From Chiloscyllium plagiosum (taxonomy: Eukaryota): DNA of 64,000 nt. The position numbers and the translations under genes are program-made. Position 1 is the stretch's first letter; each line of letters begins with the position of its first letter. The stretch covers positions 20,459,911 through 20,523,910 of the forward strand of contig NC_057722.1 of NCBI RefSeq assembly GCF_004010195.1. The letters are read 5' to 3'. Shown piece after piece: positions 43,767 through 44,355 of the stretch. The notes under the pieces are model-generated. The model was not told the origin of the DNA and did not search any database. It saw only the letters and a program-made list of their open reading frames with translations.

Positions 43767-43888
43767 CTAGTCCCCTCCACCAGGCAGACGTAACACCAAG
43801 AGGATTGTTGATTTGTCCGTGATGCTGTATTCAGAGAATTTTTTGTTATCTTCCAATTGTTTGTTGGCAAAAAGAAGGCGCAGATCAC
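43767..43888 (-). CDS. Ubiquitin-like modifier, exon 2 (C-terminal half, [12 protein letters not shown])
   Basis: ccatcgcag acceptor, phase 1; [40 protein letters not shown], aligning to ubiquitin [36 protein letters not shown]. Confidence 0.93.
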
Positions 43889-44210
43889 CTGCGATGGCTA
43901 ATCCACCAAAAGAAACAGAAACGGAGAAAAATGAATAAACCTAAAAAAAAACCTCAAGAACATCCTAAATACTATGGTTAGTTATTATTCCAATTTTAAC
44001 CTTAAAAGGATTTAGACCCCGCATCCCTTCGGTAAGTTAAATTCTAAAGTTTGGGTTAAGCGCTTTAAAACCCAAAGATTTGAATCGGTATCATGTAGTT
44101 TAATTCTCATTTTGTACCACCAGGTGATATGATTGTCCACTCAATTCTTTAGCTGATTACTGCTATCACTTTCAAAAGCCCACTCTCGTGCTCTGTTATT
44201 GCTCACGTAC

Positions 44211-44355
44211 CTGCTTCTCCCGGCACTTTCTTCAATAACAATTCCTTAAACTTGAGAATGGGCATCGCATTAAATTCTGCCTCAGTGTGTGAAACATCAA
44301 CAGTCATTTTTTCCCCTTTCAACCCTACGACAAACACTTGAAAGATTTTCCCCAT
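44211..44355 (-). CDS. Ubiquitin-like modifier, exon 1 (N-terminal beta-grasp half)
   Basis: ATG at 44355; MGKIFQVFVVGLKGEKMTVDVSHTEAEFNAMPILKFKELLLKKVPGEA; CAG|gtacgt donor, phase 1. Spliced product is 88 aa; from memory it resembles teleost zgc:194655-like Ubls (not searched). Confidence 0.92.

What the first reader, a model, noticed from the sequence alone, without database searches (positions are those of the whole stretch)
43767..44355. 88-aa single-domain Ubl with a non-canonical LRLPGG C-terminus and a 2-residue pro-peptide
Spliced protein: [88 protein letters not shown]. Against ubiquitin, R42, K48, V70, R72 (the E1 gatekeeper, unlike A72 of NEDD8) and di-Gly are kept. Changes are R74->P, I44->L, H68->L, K63->D (Lys shifted to 64) and a roughly 6-residue insertion before helix 1. 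It has one domain, unlike two-domain ISG15 and FAT10. The GD extension must be cleaved before conjugation, which suggests a role for the neighbouring USPs. A Pro in the tail may exclude ordinary DUBs (ubiquitin L73P is DUB-resistant) and demand a dedicated protease; this is inference.
Basis: partly seen in the sequence, partly recalled or inferred. Interest (0 to 1): 0.85.

Follow-up and report, generated by a model that had tools for sequence, protein, structure and literature searches.

The report
New ubiquitin-like tag of jawed fishes
A small spliced gene encodes an unstudied ubiquitin-like protein, kept from sharks to coelacanth and bony fishes, that sits beside an E3 ligase and proteases of interferon-responsive families and likely acts as a second antiviral protein tag alongside ISG15.

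Summary
The gene is real and spliced, but RNA contigs from 6 of 6 contig runs use an acceptor 9 nt upstream, so the protein is 91 aa, not 88. It belongs to the zgc:194655 family (sharks, rays, coelacanth, bichir, paddlefish, teleosts), a clade apart from ubiquitin and ISG15. R42-, V70- and R72-equivalents and RLPGG are invariant in 32 of 32 aligned members; the tail behind is 1-16 residues and unconserved, the signature of a processed modifier. K48 is not conserved (15 of 32). Ubl and ARIT have consecutive or near-consecutive record numbers in 7 of 12 other species. USP18-type and USP47-like proteases flank them; no E1 or E2 is linked. A predicted Ubl:ARIT complex passes (0.84, best control 0.00), but in the known allosteric ubiquitin pose, so it may be memory. 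Best reading, about 50%: an interferon-linked conjugation module parallel to ISG15. Cleavage, conjugation and induction of the Ubl itself are untested. My paper searches found no description of the Ubl.

The parts
44211..44355 (-). Ubl coding exon 1 (MGK start, 48 codons + 1 nt)
   Evidence: M1 invariant in 32 of 32; contigs join at 44211
43898..44210 (-).
   Evidence: joint 43897/44211 in 6 of 6 contig runs
43767..43897 (-). Ubl coding exon 2 with stop codon
43776..43790 (-). RLPGG codons; di-Gly at residues 88-89, followed by a 2-residue tail (43770-43775)
   Evidence: sequence; invariant in 32 of 32, tail column identity 0.31
43449..43473 (-). poly(A) signal ATTAAA (43468-43473) and cleavage site (43449): the Ubl has its own 3' end
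   Evidence: 3 oligo-dT loose ends in X21; sequence
44439..44449 (-). IRF-element-like site about 90 nt upstream of the start codon
   Evidence: the same stretch read in frame (KLKVKLN) appears in the N-terminal extension of skate record P0020; function not tested
29522..35260 (-). ARIT type 1 RBR E3 ligase, 4 coding exons (35173-35260, 32084-32181, 31303-31476, 29522-29989), 275 aa; RING1 lacks zinc site 1, Rcat Cys kept
   Evidence: matches ARIT alignment in PMC12234341 supplement
2246..10766 (-). USP-A, USP7/USP47-like ('USP18-like' clade), 5' exons; continues left of the window to its His box (L012:782-925)
47864..58845 (+). USP-B, head-to-head with the Ubl, exons 47864-48207, 56896-57034, 58749-58845; USP18-type Cys box; continues right of the window, His box not found
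   Evidence: X3 contig
47833..47843 (-). IRF-element-like site about 20 nt before the first base of the USP-B contig
11246..11256 (-). IRF-element-like site about 490 nt upstream of the USP-A start codon

Best explanation
This is a transcribed single-domain ubiquitin-like protein with an invariant RLPGG end that likely works as an interferon-induced covalent tag, parallel to ISG15, with the adjacent ARIT RBR ligase as its likely E3 and a neighbouring USP18-family protease as its likely processing enzyme. Shown: the spliced stand-alone transcript, the fold, the conserved di-Gly before a free tail, the conserved linkage to ARIT type 1, USP neighbours. Inferred: IRF-driven induction; a clustered USP removes the tail and later reverses the tag; a general E1 (UBA7, UBA1 or UBA6, via the kept R42/R72) and an unlinked E2 charge it; ARIT takes it on its Rcat cysteine and transfers it to substrate lysines; free or conjugated Ubl also sits in the RING1-IBR allosteric site and switches ARIT on (feed-forward, as for other RBRs). 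Trypsin would leave an LPGG remnant (+324.18 Da, calculated), which di-Gly antibodies would likely miss.
For: Spliced in 6 of 6 contig runs with own poly(A) site. V-x-RLPGG and the R42-equivalent invariant in 32 of 32; tails 1-16 aa, 9 different first residues, none ends at GG. Family is one clade, 98/93, apart from ubiquitin and shark di-Ubls. The adjacent ARIT is always type 1, 7 of 7. Salmon ARIT.1 log2FC 6.3/4.5/13.5 and USP18-like 2.0/2.3/4.9 after virus or IFN-gamma, about 160 kb apart on chr 7 (PMC12234341 Table 3 and SF1.6). Strict IRF-element within 600 nt of 4 of 5 located gene starts, 10 sites in 324,843 bases. Rcat Cys in 59 of 60 ARITs. Complex model 0.84 against best control 0.00, runs agree in at least 96% of contacts, partner pLDDT at least 89; the mark was reached by 51 of 78 solved and 2 of 108 mismatched microbial pairs, 39 of 65 and 2 of 126 in eukaryotes.
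Against: No cleavage, thioester, conjugate or induction data for the Ubl itself. No E1 or E2 match on this chromosome-scale contig (lower-bound lists). The predicted pose is the known allosteric ubiquitin pose (PMC9834252 passage), not the donor site, so the pass may be from memory; ubiquitin was not run as a control; interface residues are no more conserved than the rest of ARIT (0.64 vs 0.67). ARIT1 itself has no strict IRF site, nor do 3 of 4 ISG15-like loci, and the motif was chosen after seeing the Ubl site. Homologs were gathered by shared 5-residue words, which can inflate RLPGG invariance. His boxes of USP-B and USP-C not found. Polyodon pair on different contigs, 4 species non-consecutive.
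Confidence: 0.5

Rival explanations
1. The Ubl is a non-conjugated, co-induced allosteric activator or cofactor of ARIT, which itself transfers ubiquitin or ISG15.
For: The only binding mode predicted is the RING1-IBR allosteric site, using strand 82-86 and the L12/L57/L81/V83 patch; RBRs are switched on by Ub or Ubls at this site; tight linkage to ARIT; no linked E1 or E2.
Against: A purely allosteric role would not need an invariant di-Gly followed by a free tail; R42 and R72 equivalents, which serve E1 recognition in ubiquitin (recalled), are invariant.
Confidence: 0.2
2. The Ubl is processed and conjugated, but by the general ubiquitin or ISG15 machinery (for example as a chain cap), and the cluster reflects shared interferon control only.
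For: Ubiquitin-like tail and R72; no dedicated E1/E2 nearby; ARIT type 2 persists in amniotes, where no Ubl ortholog was retrieved; the salmon paper proposes ARIT as a possible ISG15 E3.
Against: Immediate adjacency to ARIT type 1 kept between sharks, rays and bonefishes; ARIT RING1 is remodelled in the whole clade, suggesting special partners.
Confidence: 0.17
3. The P3 proline makes the precursor poorly cleavable, and the Ubl is a decoy that binds and tunes USP18-family or viral deubiquitinases.
For: Pro invariant in 32 of 32; Pro at P4 blocks cleavage of Ub and NEDD8; several USPs in the cluster.
Against: The known block is at P4, not P3 (no R74P occurrence in the 15 listed of 31 papers); an uncleaved tail contacting a protease would be expected to show some constraint, and it shows none.
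Confidence: 0.08
4. The exons are the N-terminal Ubl domain of a Parkin-like Ubl-RBR fusion made by splicing into ARIT exon 2.
For: One predicted protein, P0343, joins the Ubl at LPG to ARIT exon 2; an Atlas cluster of 92-aa Ubls carries an RBR name.
Against: Contigs run unbroken through the stop into the 3' UTR in 6 of 6 runs, with no run-on in X1 and X2 (the loose-end table was cut); own poly(A) site; ARIT has its own conserved first exon; no fused form among the 16 ARIT hits printed of 120 listed.
Confidence: 0.04

Closest known systems
ISG15 / UBA7 / UBE2L6 / HERC5 / USP18
   Same: Ubiquitin-fold protein with di-Gly and a short tail; USP18-family protease associated; interferon context
   Different: One domain, two exons, RLPGG not LRLRGG; separate clade; this genome has its own single-ORF di-Ubl genes ending LRLRGG on another contig; linked E3 is an RBR, and the genes are clustered
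Ubiquitin
   Same: Fold, R42, V70, L71-R72-L73, di-Gly; best PDB sequence and structure hits
   Different: 39% identity, extra helix 25-29, G47 mostly Asn, K48 variable, K63 lost, R74P, no poly-Ub or ribosomal fusion
NEDD8
   Same: Single-domain precursor with a short tail removed by a protease
   Different: Arg at the 72 position (NEDD8 Ala72 recalled); insertions; no cullin link seen; not included in my tree
ARIT RBR clade and 'USP18-like' clade (PMC12234341)
   Same: The two neighbours match these clades; induced by virus and IFN-gamma in salmon
   Different: That paper does not mention this Ubl in the sections and PDF supplement I read, proposes ISG15 as ARIT's possible cargo, and calls the RBR typical, whereas RING1 ligands 1, 2, 5, 6 are absent
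Allosteric Ub/Ubl activation of RBRs (Parkin-phospho-Ub, HOIP, HOIL-1, RNF216, ARIH1-NEDD8; PMC9834252)
   Same: Predicted pose: hydrophobic patch on the RING1-IBR helix, tail paired with the second IBR strand
   Different: Here the candidate activator is a dedicated gene next to the ligase

Membership tests
Conjugated ubiquitin-like modifiers | beta-grasp ubiquitin fold | tested here: met
Conjugated ubiquitin-like modifiers | conserved C-terminal (di-)Gly at or near the end, with a dispensable tail | tested here: met
   GG 32 of 32; tail 1-16 aa, identity 0.31
Conjugated ubiquitin-like modifiers | expressed as a free protein, not an internal domain | tested here: met
   stand-alone spliced contigs and poly(A) site
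Conjugated ubiquitin-like modifiers | tail removed by a protease | not testable with these tools
   USP neighbours only
Conjugated ubiquitin-like modifiers | E1 activation and isopeptide conjugates | not testable with these tools
   R42/R72 equivalents invariant; no linked E1/E2
ISG15 | two tandem Ubl domains ending LRLRGG | tested here: not met
   one domain, LRLPGG; di-Ubl genes lie on C25
ISG15 | groups with ISG15-like domains in a tree | tested here: not met
   separate clade 98/93 against four shark di-Ubl domains; no mammalian ISG15 in the tree
ISG15 | interferon-inducible | tested here: inconclusive
   IRF-like site and induced neighbours; no expression data for the Ubl
Ubiquitin | near-invariant 76-aa sequence in poly-Ub or ribosomal fusions | tested here: not met
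   39% identity, single copy
NEDD8 | Ala72 and cullin conjugation | tested here: not met
   Arg in 32 of 32; Ala72 is recalled; cullin link not tested
Parkin-like Ubl-RBR fusion | Ubl and RBR in one chain | tested here: not met
   one predicted fusion record P0343
ARIT RBR clade (neighbour gene) | RBR-only protein without transmembrane segment, with the ARIT motifs | tested here: met
   compared by eye with SF1.12; RBR fold hits; groups with Salmo and Alligator hits

The most novel reading that the evidence does not exclude
Jawed vertebrates ancestrally had a second interferon-induced conjugation pathway, encoded as a gene cluster: its own modifier, an RBR E3 with a half-lost RING1, and a USP18-family protease able to cut after a P3 proline. 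It was lost with ARIT type 1 on the amniote line and has been invisible to di-Gly proteomics because it leaves an LPGG remnant.
Probability: 0.4. Interest if true: 0.9.

Novelty: new variant of a known kind. Interest (0 to 1): 0.75.

Why it matters
Vertebrate conjugatable Ubls are a short, long-stable list. A further one with candidate E3 and protease encoded next door would add an arm to interferon defence in fishes, give the orphan ARIT and USP18-like enzymes a cargo, and offer a clue to how USP18 specificity arose. It can be tested at once: records name the zebrafish counterparts zgc:194655 and si:ch211-212k18.15, and the predicted remnant mass can be searched in existing fish proteomes.

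Tried and rejected
Range beyond fishes is unresolved: the homolog search was seeded with three carpet-shark sequences and returned no tetrapod, lungfish or lamprey Ubl, which is not evidence of absence; the profile search of 1.84 billion proteins was swamped by polyubiquitins (2 of the best 150 rows were family members). Viral contigs: 10 pattern matches, none confirmed. Metagenome contigs: 1 locus, L042, a 16-residue chance match in a 72% G+C contig, dropped. One record pair (P0336/P0340) may come from this same assembly and was not counted. An upstream in-frame ATG (118-aa model P0336) was set aside: it abuts the IRF-like site, 5 of 6 contigs end before it, and MGK is the conserved start; contigs cannot show a start. 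No run listed as holding the stretch is on record as RNA; X22 gave 0 reads. A USP at C13:39.77-39.81 Mb, checked as a possible true USP18, did not show the USP18-type Cys box. Short-exon PDB searches did not assign USP-B (best hit USP28, E 0.007; no USP). Paper searches: 'zgc 194655' 0, 'LRLPGG' 0 (23), '194655'+'zgc' 8, of which 3 opened were PubMed ids, 'DDB_G0292642' 0 (25), 'ch211-212k18.15' 0 (57), topic searches gave only PMC12234341 as relevant by listing. Earlier findings of the scan: none.

Full report
Observation. The gene lies on the minus strand, ATG at 44355, stop ending at 43767. The runs are only guessed to be RNA, but the contigs skip a GT-AG intron. The protein is 91 aa, as in the closest named ortholog P0001. 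Raw reads of X21 (9 laid) show a poly(A) end at 43449 behind ATTAAA; X22 gave none. One contig (X7, depth 4.7) has a 1-base insertion in a T run of exon 2, probably an error. The gene is single-copy in G000. The genome is a carpet shark by protein similarity (98% over exon 1 to a named bamboo shark protein).

Family. A three-sequence profile returned 65 proteins among 1237 candidates: 32 fish family members (sharks, rays, coelacanth, bichir, paddlefish, sturgeon, teleosts; some named zgc:194655), one divergent unnamed member (P0045) and 32 ubiquitin-type proteins. In the 32 aligned the equivalents of R42, V70, R72, L73 and the Pro-Gly-Gly are invariant; the residue after GG has 9 states and tails run 1-16 residues. 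I44 is Leu in 26, K48 is Lys in only 15, K63 is Asp in 29. Candidates were collected by shared words, so invariance may be somewhat inflated. The model (pLDDT 88.6) is a ubiquitin fold with an added helix at 25-29. In a 23-row tree the family, P0045 included on a long branch, is one side of a 98/93 branch against ubiquitin and four shark di-Ubl domains. ISG15-like di-Ubl genes ending LRLRGG sit on another contig, so this is not the shark ISG15.

Neighbourhood. Next on the same strand is a 275-aa RBR ligase. It matches the clade named ARIT in PMC12234341 (I read found passages, sections 3.2 and 3.6, and parts 2-4 of the PDF supplement; the spreadsheet was too large to read). There ARIT is induced by virus and IFN-gamma, occurs from teleosts to monkeys and was not found in humans; a USP18-like gene lies about 160 kb away and is also induced. 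The Ubl is not mentioned in what I read. Against RNF144 in that alignment, ARIT lacks RING1 ligands 1, 2, 5 and 6 and keeps the Cys-His pair (58 of 60) and the Rcat Cys (59 of 60); the model is confident (pLDDT 90.1) and hits RBRs. USP-A has Cys and His boxes and resembles USP7/USP47. USP-B starts 3.5 kb away, head-to-head (X3 contig from 47864), and shares the CCVNALLQ Cys box of fish USP18. Beyond the window lie a second ARIT, USP-C and a USP 3' fragment closest to USP18; the assembly has gaps and the His boxes of USP-B and -C were not found, so the count is three or four USPs. No E1 or E2 match falls on this contig among 17 and 52 listed.

Linkage. Of 12 other species with accessions seen for both genes, 6 are consecutive (Hemiscyllium, Mustelus, Rhinoraja, Hemitrygon, two Albula), 1 within three (Mobula hypostoma), 4 share a contig without being consecutive and 1 (Polyodon, one paralog checked) differs. 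This is indirect. A 39-row ARIT tree shows a type 2 clade (SH-aLRT 96; mostly CaaX ends) holding all 3 amniote rows; the 7 Ubl-linked ARITs are type 1, which also occurs in lungfish and caecilians. Loss of the Ubl with type 1 in amniotes is a hypothesis; my searches could not test it.

Regulation. A strict IRF-element pattern (recalled) occurs 10 times in 324,843 bases, within 600 nt of 4 of 5 located gene starts, against 0.018 expected per window. The site before the Ubl appears kept in a skate, where a predicted N-terminal extension reads the same seven residues at similar distance. Against: pattern chosen after the fact, none at ARIT1, none at 3 of 4 ISG15-like loci. The zebrafish ISG preprint 10.1101/693333 has no 'zgc' in its main text (passages); its supplements were closed.

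Complex. Orthologs from two carpet sharks (P0066, P0001) scored 0.84 against a best control of 0.00, with the calibration counts given under Best explanation. The Ubl patch sits on the RING1-IBR helix and its tail pairs with IBR residues 126-129, exactly the allosteric ubiquitin pose described in PMC9834252 (passages). The pass therefore shows likeness to solved complexes and does not separate the Ubl from ubiquitin; interface residues are not more conserved than the rest.

Mechanism and verdict. The invariant di-Gly before a free tail argues for processing and conjugation (about 70% over best reading and second rival). Linkage argues for ARIT type 1 as partner and a clustered USP as protease; E1 and E2 would be borrowed. 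It works like ISG15 by inference and is not a member of that family. In the library searched (subscription papers and most supplements not covered) I found no description of the Ubl or of the three-part cluster. New variant of a known kind; interest 0.75.

Noticed in passing
P0045, P0334, P0335 (unnamed ENA and Logan records): Divergent family members (41% to the shark protein) with the inserted segment and RLPGG plus tail, from an unidentified source; may extend the family beyond jawed fishes.
   Followed up: partly
L008-L009, about 41.6-50.8 kb left of the window: Second ARIT (type 2) ending in a CaaX-like motif; 12 of 120 listed ARIT hits end this way. USP-A begins Met-Gly-Asn-Cys, a lipidation-like start (recalled motif). 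Suggests membrane targeting of part of the cluster.
   Followed up: partly
L005:5959-6090 and L014-L018: A USP18-like 3' fragment without a 5' part lies left of the cluster, while USP-B and USP-C lack 3' exons next to assembly gaps; possible misplaced contig.
   Followed up: partly
G000 C43:15.93 Mb, C17:57.52 and 57.73 Mb, C99069 (L027-L041): Four more distant ARIT-like RBR copies, one with an in-frame stop; no Ubl or USP hit in the flanks fetched.
   Followed up: partly
L022-L025 (C25:15.35-15.42 Mb): Four single-ORF di-ubiquitin-like genes of two distinct types, all ending LRLRGG plus 2-3 residues; likely the ISG15 locus.
   Followed up: partly
P0160: The ARIT record labelled lamprey nests among teleost sequences on a 31.6-kb contig; likely contamination, so not evidence for jawless fishes.
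   Followed up: partly
window 32361-33188: Inverted pair of retroelement fragments (381 bp, 94% alike) in the first ARIT intron.
   Followed up: no
L019-L020 (about 56-64 kb right of the window): Fragmented endogenous-retrovirus-like gag/pol ORFs on the minus strand; observed only.
   Followed up: no
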